Position numbers and translations under genes: made by a program. 38,381 bases of DNA from positions 1 through 38,381 of the IMG/VR virus record IMGVR_UViG_2563366886_000002. One strand, 5' to 3'. Shown here in pieces: positions 11,250 to 27,522 of the stretch. The DNA comes from a virus. Taxonomy: Duplodnaviria; Heunggongvirae; Uroviricota; Caudoviricetes. How positions within the stretch are numbered: position 1 is the stretch's first letter; each line of letters starts with the position of its first letter. Below the pieces are notes generated by a model. It was given only the letters and a program-made list of their open reading frames with translations. It searched no databases and had not been told where the DNA came from.

Positions 11250-12277
11250 TGGCAAAAGTGGCTGACGGGATCCGCTACGCCGAACGTGTTGTTGCAGGAG
11301 AAATTGTTGCTGGCGAATTTGTCCGTCTGGCCTGCCAGCGTTTTCTTGATGATCTGAAGTACGGCGAAGAGCGGGGGATTTATTTCAGTGAACCTCGTGC
11401 ACAGCACATCCTTAATTTCTACAAATTTGTACCCCATGTGAAAGGGGCGCTGGCAGGTCAGCCCATTGAGTTGATGGACTGGCATGTGTTTATCCTCATT
11501 AATATTTTTGGTTTTGTCATTCCGCTGGTGAATGAAGAAACCGGGGAAGTTGTCATGCGCAGCGATGGCAGTGGACGCCCGGTGATGGTGCGCCGGTTCC
11601 GGACAGCATACAACGAAGTTGCCCGTAAAAACGCAAAATCAACCCTGTCATCGGGTATCGGTCTGTATATGACGGGGGCAGATGGTGAAGGCGGGGCTGA
11701 GGTGTATTCAGCCGCAACCACGCGTGACCAGGCCAGAATTGTGTTTGAAGACGCCAAAAATATGGTCAGAAAAGCCCGGTCGACACTCGGGCGGTTGTTT
11801 GATTTCAACAAGCTGGCGATTTACCAGGAGCAGAGCGCATCAAAATTTGAACCGCTTTCCTCGGATGCAAACAACCTGGACGGTCTGAACATCCACTGCG
11901 CCATTATTGATGAGCTGCATGCTCATAAAACCCGTGACGTGTGGGACGTTCTGGAAACGGCAACCGGTGCCCGTCTGCAGTCTCTGTTATTTGGCATCAC
12001 CACGGCTGGCTTTAACAAGGAAGGGATTTGCTACGAGCAGCGCGATTACGCCATTAAGGTATTGCGAGGCTATAACAGCGACGTGGAGGGCGCGGTAAAA
12101 GACGACTCCTACTTTGCGATCATTTACACGCTCGATGAGGGAGATGATCCGTTTGATGAAACGGTCTGGCAGAAAGCGAATCCTGGCCTGGGCATCTGTA
12201 AACGCTGGGATGATCTGCGTCGTCTGGCGAAAAAAGCGAAGGAGCAGGTCTCTGCGCGGGTGAATTTTTTTACCAAG
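11249..12277 (+). CDS. terminase large subunit, N-terminal (ATPase) portion only; interrupted by the inserted element
   Basis: MAKVADGIRYAERVV...KANPGLGICKRWDDLRRLAKKAKEQVSARVNFFTKK aligns by eye with residues 1 to about 330 of the intact terL at 25338..26999; frame then reads through the att junction into int. Confidence 0.8.
12263..12277. repeat. attL core (left junction of inserted element)
   Basis: AATTTTTTTACCAAG; 12/15 identical to AATATTCTTACCAAA at 27508..27522, with a 7-bp identical core TTACCAA; both copies in the terL reading frame. Confidence 0.6.
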
Positions 12278-12406
12278 AAAGTAACATCACGCCGTAACAA
12301 CAGTGCGACCTGTCCTGATTTTTTTAGTAACCAAATGAAAGAAAAAGATTTTTTTCTTGTTCGTCGTTTTTGTTTTTTCTGGAAGGTTCTGGCTGTTTTC
12401 ATCATT

Positions 12407-12429
12407 TGTGTATTGCACTGTGTATTGCA
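12407..12429 (+). repeat. tandem direct repeats (candidate integrase arm-type sites / int promoter), left arm
   Basis: TGTGTATTGCA c TGTGTATTGCA 20 bp upstream of the int ATG; related GTGTATTGC pair at 27419..27439. Confidence 0.5.
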
Positions 12430-12448
12430 AAAACGGGTTATAAATCAC

Positions 12449-13671
12449 ATGGCGCTAAACAAACTGAGCGATAAAAAACTTCGTTCCCTGCTTGGACGCA
12501 GGAGTGAGAGGCAGGAAACCATCGCTGATGGTAACGGGCTTTCGGTACGGGTCAGTAAATACGGATGTGTTAGTTTTGTTTTCTTTTACAGACTGGCGGG
12601 AAGGGAAACCGCGCCCATCTGGCTGACACTTGGAAAATATCCTGATCTGAGTCTCAAATCAGCGAGAGAGATGCGCGATCAGTGTCGAACTTGGCTTGCG
12701 GAGGGCAGAGATCCACGGATTCAGATAAAAATTGAACGGGAAGCCACCTTGCAACCTGTTACCGTTCGTGAGGCACTTGAATACTGGCTTGATAATTATG
12801 CAATGGATAAGCGTAGGGGAGCAGAACATATCAGGCAGTGCTTTGGTAAACATATTTATCCGGTGATTGGTCATGTACCACTTAGTGATTGCTCTATATC
12901 TATGTGGATTAAGTGTTTTGACAAAATAAAAAAAGTAGCACCTGTACAGGCCGGAGCTTTGTTGCGTATATCAAAACAGGCGCTTAAATTTTGTAGGGTA
13001 AGAAAATACGCGATTAGTCATGAAATTGATGATCTTGAGGTCTGTGATGTGGGAAAAAAGTCTGCGCGAAGAAGCAGGGTTTTAACAGATGATGAAATCA
13101 GAGATTTATGGCGAAGTATTAATACTGATTATGACAATCACGAATTATCATATGAAAACCGAATTATTTTACGTTTCCTGGTAGTTTTTGGTTGTCGACT
13201 GTCAGAAGTATTACTGTCGTCCTGGGTAGAGTGGGATTTTGATAAGAAATTATGGCGCGTTCCCGCTGATCATAGCAAAAATGGCAGGGAAATAATCAGA
13301 CCGATTCCTGATGGCATGTTTAACTGGTTAGTTACGTTAAAAAAATAACAGGTAACAAAGAAAATGTGATTGGGTTTGATATGCGTCAGTGTACGGCAAG
13401 CGTAACTATCGGTAAGACATGGAAAAGGATGAAACACTCGGAGAAATGGACGGCGCATGATATGCGAAGAGTGTTTGCCACAAAACTAAGTGATCATGGT
13501 TTTGAACATAATGTGGTTGAACAGTTGCTTGGGCACACATTAGGCGGTGTTGCCGGGGTTTATAACAGAAGCCAGTATATGGACAGAAAAAAAGAAGCTA
13601 TGAACTGGTGGTACGACTATCTGAATAAGCAAATTAGTGGTGACAGTAATGATTCAAATAGTTACGCGTGA
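12449..13671 (+). pseudogene. int: tyrosine integrase (P4-like), reading frame split by a frameshift at an A7 run
   Basis: N part MALNKLSDKKLRSLLGRRSERQETIADGNGLSVRV... ends TAA at 13346..13348; catalytic C part (..WTAHDMRRVFATKLSD..LLGH..VYNRSQY) continues in the -1 frame (13366..13671); A7 run at 13339..13345. Confidence 0.6.
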
Positions 13672-13870
13672 AGAACTTGAAAATGATGAAACAATCGACA
13701 GGATGATTAAGGAAGATGAATGTGCATGGTTAACCGCTCTTGGCAGGAGACACAGATCGTTACTTGAAAAGGAAGGAAAATTTCCACGAAAAATATGTAT
13801 TGGCCCACAAACAAAAGTCTGGCGCTTATCTGAGGTGCTGGAATGGGTAAAAGGTGAATGGAAACCCTGA
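13637..13870 (+). CDS. AlpA-family DNA-binding protein (excisionase/regulator-like)
   Basis: ...ECAWLTALGRRHRSLLEKEGKFPRKICIGPQTKVWRLSEVLEWVKG resembles AlpA helix-turn-helix; start uncertain (several Met). Confidence 0.55.
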   Translation: MVTVMIQIVTREELENDETIDRMIKEDECAWLTALGRRHRSLLEKEGKFPRKICIGPQTKVWRLSEVLEWVKGEWKP

Positions 13871-13895
13871 GCTAAATTAAATGAGATATAATCAA

Positions 13896-26999: not shown

Positions 27000-27069
27000 C
27001 GGAATGGATGAGAGAGGACAATGCTCATTTAATGGAATAAATTTTCAGTATTACCGGCACCTACTTTCA

Positions 27070-27234
27070 GGGATGTTTTTGCGGGTTATTTGAGGGGTGT
27101 TTGCGGGTTATTTTGAATGTCTTGCGGGTTACATTCTGGCTGATATTTAAATGCGTTGTTTTTTAACATATTGATATTAAAGAGTAAAAGATAATTAGCA
27201 CGCGAAGATAACCCGCTAACCCGCATAACCCGCA
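27070..27234. repeat. second iteron cluster with the same 9-mer as the ori (candidate cis-acting replication or packaging region)
   Basis: TGCGGGTTA at 27070, 27092, 27113 (about 22-bp spacing), AT-rich spacer, then TAACCCGC at 27209, 27217, 27226. Confidence 0.6.
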
Positions 27235-27418
27235 CTGTTTTGTATATATATACGAAAAATTGCATTCAGGGGGGCTCGAAATTTCTACTGCCTCTTATCT
27301 CTTTGAGTGCTCACCTCGTCAGATTGTTACACACAAGAAATAAAAAATGCTTCGCGATGGTAGGTCGAATCACTGTATCAAAAAACGGTGTGTATCAGCA
27401 TTAAAACAATACAGATAC

Positions 27419-27439
27419 GTGTATTGCGCTGTGTATTGC
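27419..27439 (+). repeat. direct repeats (candidate integrase arm-type sites), right arm
   Basis: GTGTATTGC g ct GTGTATTGC, same 9-mer and orientation as the left-arm pair at 12407..12429. Confidence 0.5.
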
Positions 27440-27507
27440 TCGATGATTTATAAAGACTGTTTTTTCATGTTAAACGATTGATATACAGTCAATTTTAAAA
27501 AACTTGA

Positions 27508-27522
27508 AATATTCTTACCAAA
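27508..27522. repeat. attR core (right junction of inserted element)
   Basis: AATATTCTTACCAAA; pairs with attL at 12263..12277 (core TTACCAA). Confidence 0.6.

What the first reader, a model, noticed from the sequence alone, without database searches (positions are those of the whole stretch)
12270..27521. Satellite-like element with its own capsid and terminase, but no tail genes, inserted inside the prophage large-terminase gene
Seen in sequence: the helper terL reading frame is broken at 12277; its N half (11249..12277) and C half (27508..28251) each align by eye with the matching half of a complete terL at 25338..26999. The intervening 15.2 kb starts with an integrase and carries AlpA-like genes, a Bro-N protein, a repressor-like gene with operator, a DUF927 replication protein with iterons, SSB, and a capsid-protease-portal-connector-HNH-terS-terL block; it has no tail, lysis or immunity-region genes. 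Established knowledge: this gene content matches capsid-forming phage-inducible chromosomal islands (cf-PICIs), which build their own capsids and borrow helper tails. Inference: the element sits inside the very prophage whose tails it would need, and its insertion inactivates the helper's packaging motor. I do not know of an element of this kind described as targeting a phage terL, so this nesting may be new, or it may be a dead-end integration.
Basis: partly seen in the sequence, partly recalled or inferred. Interest (0 to 1): 0.9.

Follow-up and report, generated by a model that had tools for sequence, protein, structure and literature searches.

The report
Known phage satellite embedded in helper terminase
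A 15.2-kb phage satellite with its own capsid and packaging genes sits precisely inside the large-terminase gene of an E. coli prophage, but this "helper-embedded" arrangement, including a near-identical copy in E. coli 042, was published in 2023, so the finding is real and not new.

Summary
A 15,245-bp element (12270-27514, bounded by a 7-bp direct repeat TTACCAA) splits the prophage terL. Removing it in silico gives a 585-aa TerL. The restored 1758-nt gene is 100.0% identical, in one piece, to uninterrupted terL genes in many complete E. coli genomes.

The element has PICI-type integration, Bro and replication modules plus a full capsid/HNH/TerS/TerL module, and no tail or lysis genes.

The nesting is not new. 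It is the "helper-embedded PICI" (HE-PICI) class of Tommasini, Mageeney & Williams 2023 (PMC10111431), site group A:Terminase_1:246. Their table lists a 99.98%-identical twin in E. coli 042, with the same size and the same att core. The diagnostic doubled TGTATTGC motif flanks the reconstructed attP with the published geometry.

Two points go beyond the paper. This site group is of the capsid-forming (cf-PICI) type, which the paper's main text does not say. And this copy (GCA_000352925.1) has a 1-nt deletion in an A-run of the integrase gene, seen in three independent assemblies. That should lock the satellite in place and leave the helper without a terminase.

Mechanism is inferred, not shown. 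Interest is low.

The parts
10269..10619 (+). Helper prophage HNH endonuclease (HK97-type packaging module)
   Evidence: ORF list; RefSeq annotation of the 042 twin and Pfam HNH on the source contig
10767..11249 (+). Helper prophage small terminase (P27 family, Terminase_4)
11249..12276 (+). Helper terL, N-terminal fragment (ATPase domain plus the start of the nuclease domain), up to and including the att core
   Evidence: Pfam TerL_ATPase and TerL_nuclease positions 2-53; joined ORF of 585 aa
12270..12276 (.). attL crossover core TTACCAA
   Evidence: identity block 'ttaccaa' in PMC10111431 Supplementary File 1
12409..12428 (+). Doubled TGTATTGC motif on the downstream arm of attP, starting 136 bp after the core centre
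   Evidence: 2 matches in the window, 0 expected by chance; geometry; motif described in PMC10111431
12449..13671 (+). Satellite tyrosine integrase with an Arm-DNA-bind_3 domain. It is frameshifted by a 1-nt deletion in the A-run 13339-13345 (A7 here, A8 in five other copies). The product ends after 299 aa at TAA 13346-13348; the catalytic C-terminal part lies in the -1 frame (13366-13671).
13649..13870 (+). AlpA-family regulator/excisionase 1, followed by a terminator-like hairpin at 13894-13913
   Evidence: Pfam Phage_AlpA
13934..14212 (+). AlpA-family regulator 2, followed by a terminator-like hairpin at 14221-14246
14270..14848 (+). Bro-N domain protein (anti-repressor-like); the 'Bro zone'
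   Evidence: Pfam Bro-N; phrog_2593
15460..15657 (-). YlcI/YnfO (DUF3950) small protein, divergent from the Icd-like gene
15684..15764 (.). Operator-like palindromes (TGTGCGCACA-type) in the divergent intergenic region
15863..16066 (+). Icd-like protein (phrog_6196, named 'transcriptional repressor')
16503..16802 (+). DUF4222 protein
16799..18919 (+). DUF927 primase/replicase-type replication protein
   Evidence: Pfam DUF927, E = 2e-46; 82% identical to the replication protein of the O157:H7 cf-PICI
18942..19066 (.). Iteron cluster 1, the putative origin: 2x TGCGGGTTA, an AT-rich spacer, then 4x the inverted copy TAACCCGCA
19130..19555 (+). Single-strand DNA-binding protein
19571..19867 (+). 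PerC-family transcriptional activator
20184..20690 (-). Accessory gene on the opposite strand (168 aa, phrog_5789, function unknown)
20977..22146 (+). Satellite major capsid protein (HK97 fold family)
   Evidence: Pfam Phage_capsid, E = 4e-71
22201..22761 (+). Satellite prohead protease (Peptidase_S78)
22763..23977 (+). Satellite portal protein
23970..24269 (+). Satellite head-tail adaptor (gp6-like, Ad1)
24269..24709 (+). Satellite HNH endonuclease
24998..25354 (+). Satellite small terminase (Terminase_4 / P27 family)
25338..26999 (+). Satellite large terminase, intact, 553 aa, 32% identical to the restored helper TerL
27079..27233 (.). Iteron cluster 2: 3x TTGCGGGTTA, an AT-rich spacer, then 3x the inverted copy. 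Same motif as cluster 1.
27420..27439 (+). Doubled TGTATTGC motif on the upstream arm of attP, ending 79 bp before the core centre
27515..27521 (.). attR crossover core TTACCAA
27515..28251 (+). Helper terL, C-terminal fragment (nuclease domain)
   Evidence: Pfam TerL_nuclease positions 58-283

Best explanation
[quoted passage not shown] Its late zone is a complete cf-PICI-type capsid and packaging module.

**How it got there (sequence shown; recombination mechanism from knowledge of tyrosine integrases).** A P4-like tyrosine integrase recombined the satellite attP with codons Phe-Thr-Lys (343-344 region) of the terL of an HK97-type lambdoid prophage. attP consists of the core TTACCAA flanked by two doubled TGTATTGC arm sites. 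The satellite is co-oriented with the helper late operon, and attP carries no replacement sequence, so the helper TerL is split.

**Likely working cycle in intact copies (inferred from the 11capE and EcCIEDL933 experiments, not shown here).**
1. SOS induction excises and replicates the whole prophage-satellite composite.
2. Q-antiterminated late transcription runs through HNH, terS and terL-N into int and alpA. No intrinsic terminator is predicted before the end of int.
3. Int and AlpA excise the satellite and restore terL.
4. The DUF927 protein replicates the satellite from the TGCGGGTTA iterons.
5. The satellite's own HNH, TerS and TerL package it into its own small capsids.
6. Those capsids receive helper tails and are released by helper lysis.

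**This copy.** It carries a real 1-nt deletion in the integrase A-run, which truncates Int before its catalytic C-terminal part. The satellite is therefore most likely locked in place and the helper left without a large terminase. That makes this lineage a dead-end, decaying version of a known arrangement.
For: **Precise insertion with an empty site elsewhere**
- 7-bp direct repeat at both junctions.
- A 585-aa TerL is restored on excision.
- The restored gene is 100.0% identical to intact terL in many genomes: 906 genomes with an intact copy against about 30 with a split one. The same prophage type exists without the insert.

**Identity with the published class**
- The 042 twin differs at 3 positions in 15.2 kb.
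- It is listed as HE-PICI Eco33.15.A_Terminase_1_246, FN554766.1/2250958-2235714, att identity 'ttaccaa', helper Eco33.57.zinT|mtfA.
- The doubled TGTATTGC motif occurs exactly twice in 38 kb, with 0 expected by chance. Its geometry is that of the prototype 11capE measured the same way (description).
- The 042 twin's Int, identical apart from the frameshift, is 50% identical over its full length to the 11capE Int, E = 1e-144.
- The zones run in the published order: Integration, Bro, Replication, Late.

**Independent insertions**
- The element is 99.98% identical to the 042 copy while the terL flanks are only 97.9% identical. Strain 10 (L005) has a 99.94% identical terL but an element only 95.8% identical.
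- Downstream helper head genes differ between loci.

**cf-PICI-type module**
- Pfam hits for capsid, protease, portal, adaptor, HNH, TerS and TerL.
- 93-100% amino-acid identity to a fis-integrated element, and 56-93% to the O157:H7 roxA/phoQ element.
- No tail or lysis genes.

**Read-through.** No terminator-like hairpin on the + strand between 12277 and 13671.

**Frameshift.** A7 here against A8 in five other copies. The stretches fetched from GCA_000352925.1 and from Logan assemblies of SRR647296 and SRR633911 (7.0-8.1 kb, spanning both variant homopolymer runs) are 100% identical to the window.
Against: - No experiment exists for this site group. Excision timing, replication and particle formation are extrapolated from 11capE (a capsid-gene site, for which no virions were recovered) and from EcCIEDL933 (a chromosomal cf-PICI).
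- The satellite adaptor shows no detectable similarity to the helper connector, and head proteins are only 25-38% identical. Tail compatibility with this helper is therefore assumed.
- The element lacks the head-closure gene present in other variants.
- The frameshift sits in a slippery A AAA AAA heptamer next to a stop codon, so low-level full-length Int through -1 frameshifting or transcriptional slippage cannot be excluded. Int could also be supplied in trans.
- I did not recompute the position in the old Pfam Terminase_1 profile. That family has since been split into two.
Confidence: 0.88

Rival explanations
1. This copy is still mobile. The A7 run is bypassed by -1 ribosomal frameshifting or transcriptional slippage at A AAA AAA, by reversion to A8, or by an integrase supplied in trans from a related HE-PICI. 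The satellite can then still excise and restore the helper terL.
For: The deletion lies in a perfect X XXY YYZ heptamer (13339-13345) directly followed by a stop codon, and the downstream catalytic part is in the -1 frame. Everything else in the element is intact and differs from the 042 copy at only two other positions. Both att sites and both arm motifs are intact.
Against: All five other copies examined have A8 and a single int ORF, so A7 is the derived, exceptional state. There is no evidence of a stimulatory structure and no experimental data. From general knowledge, A AAA AAA is a weaker shifter in E. coli than A AAA AAG.
Confidence: 0.1
2. The split terL with an internal island is a conserved, phage-owned arrangement: a programmed DNA rearrangement that benefits the prophage, like developmental 'regulated gene integrity' elements. 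On this view it is not a parasitic satellite.
For: The element is co-oriented with the late operon, and excision would restore the gene. The same layout is seen in about 30 complete genomes.
Against: About 97% of genomes with this terL have it uninterrupted, many at 100% identity, including isolated phages. Element similarity and helper similarity are discordant. The packaging module is shared at 93-100% amino-acid identity with an element integrated next to fis, outside any prophage. The element carries its own replication and packaging genes.
Confidence: 0.02
3. The insert is a remnant of a second HK97-like prophage that recombined into the first, or an assembly join, rather than a discrete integrative satellite.
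For: Two homologous HNH-terS-terL-portal-protease-capsid sets lie within 20 kb.
Against: The boundaries are precise, with a 7-bp core and integrase arm motifs. The two modules are only 25-38% identical, too divergent for homologous recombination. The left half is PICI-type (Int, AlpA, Bro, DUF927) with no cI/Cro, lysis or tail genes. The same structure is present in many finished genomes and in independent assemblies.
Confidence: 0.01

Closest known systems
HE-PICI Eco33.15.A_Terminase_1_246 of E. coli 042 (Tommasini, Mageeney & Williams 2023, NAR Genom Bioinform, PMC10111431, Supplementary File 1)
   Same: Same 15,245-bp size, same att core TTACCAA, same site in terL and the same gene order. 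99.98% nucleotide identity, with 3 differences.
   Different: The window copy has A7 instead of A8 in int (a frameshift), G8 instead of G7 at 16250-16257, and one substitution at 27275. The helper terL flanks differ by about 2%. The source is a different strain (GCA_000352925.1), and I did not find it in the part of the table that is held.
Eco567.11capE, the prototype HE-PICI in the capsid gene E of a lambdoid prophage of E. coli NRG857c
   Same: Int is 50% identical over its full length. The doubled TGTATTGC arm motif has the same spacing, the element is co-oriented with the interrupted late gene, and attP carries no replacement sequence. Both share the AlpA / YlcI / Icd-like / DUF4222 / SSB backbone.
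   Different: 11capE targets the capsid gene. It carries only capsid and decoration genes and no terS or terL, so it is presumed to use the helper's packaging machinery. It has a different primase and carries HEPN/DUF262 accessory genes.
cf-PICI EcCIEDL933 (Alqurainy et al. 2023), represented here by the O157:H7 element between roxA and phoQ (L003), which fits its description
   Same: About 15 kb with the same order of int, alpA, DUF4222, DUF927, ssb, perC, then capsid, protease, portal, connector, HNH, terS, terL. No tail genes. Replication protein 82% identical, TerL 93%, TerS 88%, portal 81%.
   Different: It is integrated in the chromosome, not in a prophage. Its Int is only 42% identical and lacks the HE-PICI attP context. 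It has an extra head-closure gene, and both iteron clusters lie together after the replication gene. I did not verify directly that L003 is the EDL933 element.
fis-integrated PICI with a capsid/terminase module (strain N17, L004); the fis PICI family of PMC10111431
   Same: The packaging module is almost the same: capsid 98%, portal 99%, HNH 100%, TerS 100%, TerL 99.6% amino-acid identity.
   Different: It has a different integrase (46%) and a chromosomal site at fis, a different primase, and different accessory genes.

Membership tests
HE-PICI (helper-embedded PICI; PMC10111431) | Integrated inside a prophage late gene, disrupting it, with no replacement sequence in attP | tested here: met
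   terL is split at codons 343-344. Excision restores a 585-aa ORF that is 100% identical to intact genes elsewhere. The helper late genes are contiguous on both sides.
HE-PICI (helper-embedded PICI; PMC10111431) | Key satellite genes (int, alpA, primase) co-oriented with the interrupted late gene | tested here: met
   All are on the + strand, like terL.
HE-PICI (helper-embedded PICI; PMC10111431) | Primary tyrosine integrase belongs to the HE-PICI clade | tested here: met
   The 042 twin's Int, identical apart from the frameshift, is 50% identical over the full length (E = 1e-144) to the prototype 11capE Int. That twin element is listed in the authors' HE-PICI table. I did not build a tree.
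HE-PICI (helper-embedded PICI; PMC10111431) | Two co-oriented copies of the doubled motif tgTGTATTGCantgTGTATTGCa, about 81 bp upstream and about 132 bp downstream of the attP centre | tested here: met
   Exactly two matches in the window, with 0 expected by chance. One ends 79 bp before the core centre and the other starts 136 bp after it. The prototype measured the same way gives about 78 and 133.
HE-PICI (helper-embedded PICI; PMC10111431) | Site group A:Terminase_1:246 with att identity block ttaccaa | tested here: met
   The core TTACCAA is present at both junctions, and the attL and attR sequences match the published alignments. The junction maps to about position 60 of the present TerL_nuclease profile. 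The coordinate in the old Terminase_1 profile could not be recomputed.
HE-PICI (helper-embedded PICI; PMC10111431) | Four ordered zones: Integration (Int, AlpA), Bro, Replication, Late | tested here: met
   Int and 2x AlpA; Bro-N; DUF4222, DUF927 and SSB; capsid through TerL. The immunity RNAs (C4/isrK) reported for some members were not found.
HE-PICI (helper-embedded PICI; PMC10111431) | Satellite excises after composite excision and replication, restoring the late gene | not testable with these tools
   This needs induction with att-junction qPCR or sequencing. In this copy the int gene is frameshifted.
cf-PICI (capsid-forming PICI; Alqurainy et al. 2023; SatelliteFinder model, PMC10085698) | PICI backbone: integrase, AlpA-type regulator, primase-replicase | tested here: met
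   Pfam Phage_integrase with Arm-DNA-bind_3, Phage_AlpA x2 and DUF927. The integrase is frameshifted in this copy.
cf-PICI (capsid-forming PICI; Alqurainy et al. 2023; SatelliteFinder model, PMC10085698) | Own capsid, protease, portal, head-tail adaptor and connector, HNH, TerS and TerL (11 core components in all) | tested here: met
   10 of the 11 are present. Only one head-tail joining gene is present (Ad1-like). The head-closure gene found in L003, L005 and L006 is absent. SatelliteFinder also accepts elements with 10 or 9 components.
cf-PICI (capsid-forming PICI; Alqurainy et al. 2023; SatelliteFinder model, PMC10085698) | No tail and no holin/lysis genes; size about 10-15 kb | tested here: met
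   None found among the element's annotated and main ORFs. Size 15.2 kb.
cf-PICI (capsid-forming PICI; Alqurainy et al. 2023; SatelliteFinder model, PMC10085698) | Packaging module similar to that of EcCIEDL933 | tested here: met
   56-93% amino-acid identity, gene for gene, to the O157:H7 roxA/phoQ element. That this element is EcCIEDL933 is inferred from its strain type, size and gene list.
cf-PICI (capsid-forming PICI; Alqurainy et al. 2023; SatelliteFinder model, PMC10085698) | Unique chromosomal attachment site never occupied by prophages | tested here: inconclusive
   The site is not used by prophages as their own att site, but it lies inside a prophage gene rather than in the chromosome. 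The six E. coli attB sites of the cf-PICI paper are described as chromosomal, and its Table S2 is not held.
cf-PICI (capsid-forming PICI; Alqurainy et al. 2023; SatelliteFinder model, PMC10085698) | Forms its own small capsids, packages only itself and takes helper tails | not testable with these tools
   This requires induction, electron microscopy and transfer assays.

The most novel reading that the evidence does not exclude
The A-run in the integrase gene (A7 here, A8 elsewhere) may be a reversible switch rather than simple decay. It forms a slippery A AAA AAA heptamer directly followed by a stop codon, with the catalytic part in the -1 frame. Rare -1 frameshifting, transcriptional slippage or A7/A8 phase variation would then make satellite excision stochastic. 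Because excision restores the helper terminase, the viability of the helper phage would be stochastic too. More broadly, terL-embedded satellites of the capsid-forming type would hold the helper's packaging motor hostage while packaging themselves with their own motor. This combination is catalogued but has never been tested.
Probability: 0.07. Interest if true: 0.5.

Novelty: already known. Interest (0 to 1): 0.2.

Why it matters
The finding confirms that integrative satellites can target another mobile element, not just the chromosome. In doing so they make a helper phage's essential gene conditional on the satellite's own excision. That idea, and this very element family and site, were published in 2023, so the window adds an example rather than a concept.

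Two modest points are worth keeping:
1. The terL-site group combines the helper-embedded lifestyle with a full cf-PICI capsid and packaging module. The HE-PICI paper's main text does not use that term, and nobody has tested the combination experimentally.
2. This lineage carries a reproducible integrase frameshift. If it is not bypassed, it disables both the satellite and its helper, which is a natural example of how such nested elements decay.

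Tried and rejected
- **Immunity RNAs.** An Rfam search of 12000-28000 at E <= 0.1 for the P4-type immunity RNAs (C4/isrK) reported in some HE-PICI Bro zones found nothing.
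- **TerL-Int fusion.** I asked whether the 699-aa TerL(N)-Int open reading frame is a conserved fusion or coupling device. It is open in the window, 042, L006 and L007. It is closed by a stop in L005, L008 and the prototype 11capE and, by my own reading of the published Arsenophonus attL sequence, in that element too. It is therefore incidental, and the paper flags it as an annotation problem.
- **Sequencing error.** I asked whether the int frameshift and the G-run difference are sequencing errors. This is rejected as the main reading, because the NCBI assembly and two independently assembled read sets are 100% identical over the fetched stretches.
- **Defence function.** PADLOC and Pfam gave no hit for the reverse-strand 168-aa gene, the Bro-N protein, or the 14993-15463 frame.
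- **Files not available.** The supplement of the cf-PICI preprint (attB table) is not held. The source accession KB733178/GCA_000352925 was not found in the held part of the HE-PICI table, which was cut when stored.
- **Self-targeting.** The satellite's own terL has CTCACCAAG where the helper has TTTACCAAA, and its flanks differ, so self-integration is unlikely.
- **Not done.** I did not verify directly that L003 equals EcCIEDL933, and I did not run an integrase phylogeny, SatelliteFinder or TIGER.

Full report
**1. The observation**

The window carries a lambdoid prophage with an HK97-type packaging and head module: HNH 10269-10619, terS 10767-11249, then terL.

The terL is split. Its N part (11249-12276) matches Pfam TerL_ATPase and the first 53 positions of TerL_nuclease. 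Its C part (27515-28251) matches TerL_nuclease positions 58-283.

Both junctions carry the same 7 bases, TTACCAA, at 12270-12276 and 27515-27521. Removing one core copy and everything between the two leaves a single 585-aa ORF reading ...VNFFTK|HMNVWV.... It aligns end to end with the element's own TerL (25338-26999) at 32% identity, E = 7e-88.

The restored 1758-nt gene is 100.0% identical, as one uninterrupted piece, to annotated terL genes in at least 15 listed complete E. coli genomes. 906 genomes have an uninterrupted copy and about 30 do not. 13 phage records also have it intact.

The excised window is colinear with an uninterrupted prophage of strain 2009C-3133. One 12,348-bp alignment at 99.4% runs from terS across the junction into the tail genes.

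Three details need correcting:
- The terL N frame does not end at 12277. It runs on into int as a 699-aa ORF.
- The int gene is frameshifted in this copy.
- The 'repressor with operator' is a divergent YlcI/DUF3950 and Icd-like gene pair with TGTGCGCACA palindromes between them.

**2. What the insert contains**

In order, the insert carries:
- a tyrosine integrase with an Arm-DNA-bind_3 domain (12449-13671);
- two AlpA proteins, each followed by a terminator-like hairpin;
- a Bro-N protein;
- the YlcI and Icd-like pair, small ORFs and a DUF4222 protein;
- a 706-aa DUF927 replication protein, followed by TGCGGGTTA iterons in inverted sets around an AT-rich spacer (18942-19066);
- SSB and PerC;
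- one reverse-strand gene of unknown function;
- capsid, S78 protease, portal, gp6-like adaptor, HNH, P27-type TerS and an intact TerL.

No tail, holin, endolysin or cI/Cro genes are present. Helper and satellite head and packaging proteins are homologous but distant, at 25-38% identity.

**3. Comparison with other genomes**

The window is 100% identical to GCA_000352925.1 scaffold KB733178.1 over the 8.1 kb fetched.

The closest complete genome is E. coli 042. There the element differs at only three positions in 15.2 kb, while the flanking terL differs by about 2%.

32 complete genomes carry at least 80% of the element together with both junctions. Four were inspected:
- All have the same terL-N / int ... 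terL / terL-C layout.
- The elements vary: with or without a head-closure gene, PerC or ProQ/FinO, with or without the reverse-strand gene.
- The downstream helper head genes differ between loci.

Element similarity and helper similarity are discordant. Strain 10 has a terL 99.94% identical to the window's but an element only 95.8% identical. Strain 042 shows the reverse pattern. This argues for repeated site-specific insertion, or exchange of elements, rather than one inherited arrangement.

The packaging module recurs at 93-100% amino-acid identity in an element integrated next to fis, outside any prophage. It recurs at 56-93% in the O157:H7 element between roxA and phoQ. That element also has a DUF927 protein 82% identical to this one and fits the description of EcCIEDL933. 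The satellite is thus a mosaic: a distinct integration module, a cf-PICI-type replication module and a cf-PICI-type packaging module.

**4. Comparison with the literature**

Tommasini, Mageeney & Williams (NAR Genom Bioinform 2023, PMC10111431) described exactly this configuration as helper-embedded PICIs. Their findings:
- They mapped 491 further elements to 14 sites in cognates of lambda late genes. These include sites in the large terminase (A:Terminase_1:132, :245/:246).
- All are co-oriented with the late gene.
- All use one integrase clade.
- All carry a doubled tgTGTATTGCantgTGTATTGCa motif about 81 bp upstream and about 132 bp downstream of the attP centre.

That is the 042 twin, with the same 15,245-bp size.

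In the window the doubled motif occurs exactly twice, with none expected by chance. One copy ends 79 bp before the core centre and the other starts 136 bp after it. The prototype 11capE, fetched from NRG857c and measured the same way, gives about 78 and 133. The 042 twin's Int, identical apart from the frameshift, is 50% identical over its full length to the 11capE Int.

All sequence-level features that define the class are met. The exact coordinate in the old Terminase_1 profile could not be recomputed, because Pfam has split that family. The junction falls near position 60 of the present nuclease profile, which is consistent.

The element also meets the gene-content definition of cf-PICIs (Alqurainy et al. 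2023; SatelliteFinder model in PMC10085698) with 10 of 11 core components. The HE-PICI paper cites the cf-PICI paper only for 'gain of late genes'. Its main text does not use the term cf-PICI for the terL-site group. No later paper in the searched library takes HE-PICIs further.

**5. How it most likely works**

Shown by sequence:
- precise, co-oriented insertion at a 7-bp core;
- no replacement sequence, so the helper cannot make TerL while the satellite is in place;
- intact arm motifs;
- no predicted intrinsic terminator between the helper terL-N and the end of int;
- a helper Q antiterminator upstream.

Inferred from the 11capE induction experiments and the EcCIEDL933 work:
1. After SOS induction the composite excises and replicates.
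2. Late transcription reads into int and alpA.
3. The satellite excises and terL is restored.
4. The DUF927 protein fires the iteron origin.
5. The satellite's HNH, TerS and TerL fill satellite-made capsids.
6. Helper tails and helper lysis complete and release the particles.

The satellite's own terL has CTCACCAAG at the homologous position, with different flanks, so it should not target itself.

**6. This particular copy**

Relative to 042 and to four other copies, the window has A7 instead of A8 at 13339-13345. This ends Int after 299 of 407 residues, before the His-x-x-Arg and Tyr catalytic part, which lies in the -1 frame.

The NCBI assembly and two independently assembled read sets (SRR647296, SRR633911) are 100% identical over the fetched stretches, which span the run. 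The deletion is therefore real rather than an assembly error.

Unless it is bypassed, the satellite cannot excise and the helper has no large terminase.

The run is a slippery A AAA AAA heptamer followed by a stop codon. Low-level bypass cannot be excluded, and I rate it unlikely.

**7. Rivals**

- **A phage-owned programmed rearrangement.** Contradicted by the 97% of genomes with intact terL, by the discordant similarities, and by the same packaging module in a chromosomal element.
- **A recombined second prophage or an assembly artefact.** Contradicted by the precise core and arm motifs, the 25-38% identity between the two modules, the PICI-type left half, and recurrence in finished genomes.

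**8. Verdict**

It is an already published kind of element, and a near-identical copy at the same site is already catalogued. Residual interest lies in two points:
- the combination of the helper-embedded lifestyle with a full capsid-forming module, which has not been tested;
- the natural integrase frameshift.

Interest 0.2. Novelty: already known.

Noticed in passing
window 13339-13348: The integrase A-run is A7 here and A8 in E. coli 042 and four other copies. It forms a slippery A AAA AAA heptamer directly followed by TAA, and the catalytic C-terminal part continues in the -1 frame (13366-13671). The same sequence is seen in GCA_000352925.1 and in two independent Logan assemblies.
   Followed up: yes
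window 16250-16257: A G-run is G8 here and G7 in E. coli 042. This changes the C-terminus of a small ORF (16059-16271, phrog_340, 70 aa instead of 66). It is also reproduced in the independent assemblies.
   Followed up: partly
window 18942-19066 and 27079-27233: There are two separate iteron clusters with the same TGCGGGTTA unit, each with direct copies, an AT-rich spacer and inverted copies. One lies after the DUF927 gene. The other is 8 kb away, after terL and close to attR. In the O157:H7 cf-PICI (L003: 8087-8393) both clusters lie side by side after the replication gene. The role of the displaced second cluster is unexplained.
   Followed up: partly
window 20184-20690 (- strand): This is the only sizeable reverse-strand gene in the satellite (168 aa, phrog_5789). 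It lies in the lowest-GC stretch of the element's late half and has no Pfam or PADLOC match. It is present in some variants (042, L005, L007, and 65% identical in the fis element L004) and absent in others (L006, L008). It is a candidate accessory or defence cargo gene.
   Followed up: partly
window 14849-15460: About 600 bp between Bro-N and ylcI lack a convincing gene. RefSeq calls a pseudogene fragment here in 042. There are two strong terminator-like hairpins on the - strand (15041-15014 and 15162-15142), downstream of the - strand ylcI gene. The region could be a 3' UTR or a small RNA. No Rfam family matches.
   Followed up: partly
L008 2771-2777 and about 17772-17778 (strain OkiPb01701): In this copy both attL and attR have the core TCACGAA instead of TTACCAA. 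The change is synonymous for the Phe-Thr-Lys codons of terL, so the satellite attP core and the helper attB core vary together. The variant also appears in the published table. It might reflect escape by the helper and pursuit by the satellite.
   Followed up: partly
window 11249-13348; L006 and L007 2761-4173: The helper terL-N frame stays open for 57 codons into int. Gene callers therefore produce a TerL-Int fusion (699 aa here) or start int upstream of the att core. The open frame is not conserved: there is a stop in L005, L008 and 11capE. It looks incidental.
   Followed up: yes
window 15684-15764: Three TGTGCGCACA-type palindromic sites lie in the 205-bp divergent region between ylcI (-) and the Icd-like gene (+). 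They are candidate operators of the satellite's early control region.
   Followed up: no
window 5537-5612 and 5713-5787: Two tRNA genes (CAT anticodon, called Met by ARAGORN and Ile by RefSeq in 042; and Arg-TCT) lie just downstream of the helper's Q antiterminator gene. By my own knowledge this placement is common in lambdoid prophages. The intact-terL relative L012 has Ile and Thr there instead.
   Followed up: no
window 23970-24269 compared with L003 12996-13334, L005 14413-14751 and L006 14341-14679: The window's satellite has only the gp6-like adaptor. It lacks the head-closure gene that other terL-embedded variants and the O157:H7 cf-PICI carry between portal and adaptor. It would presumably need the helper's head-closure protein (31852-32190).
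   Followed up: partly
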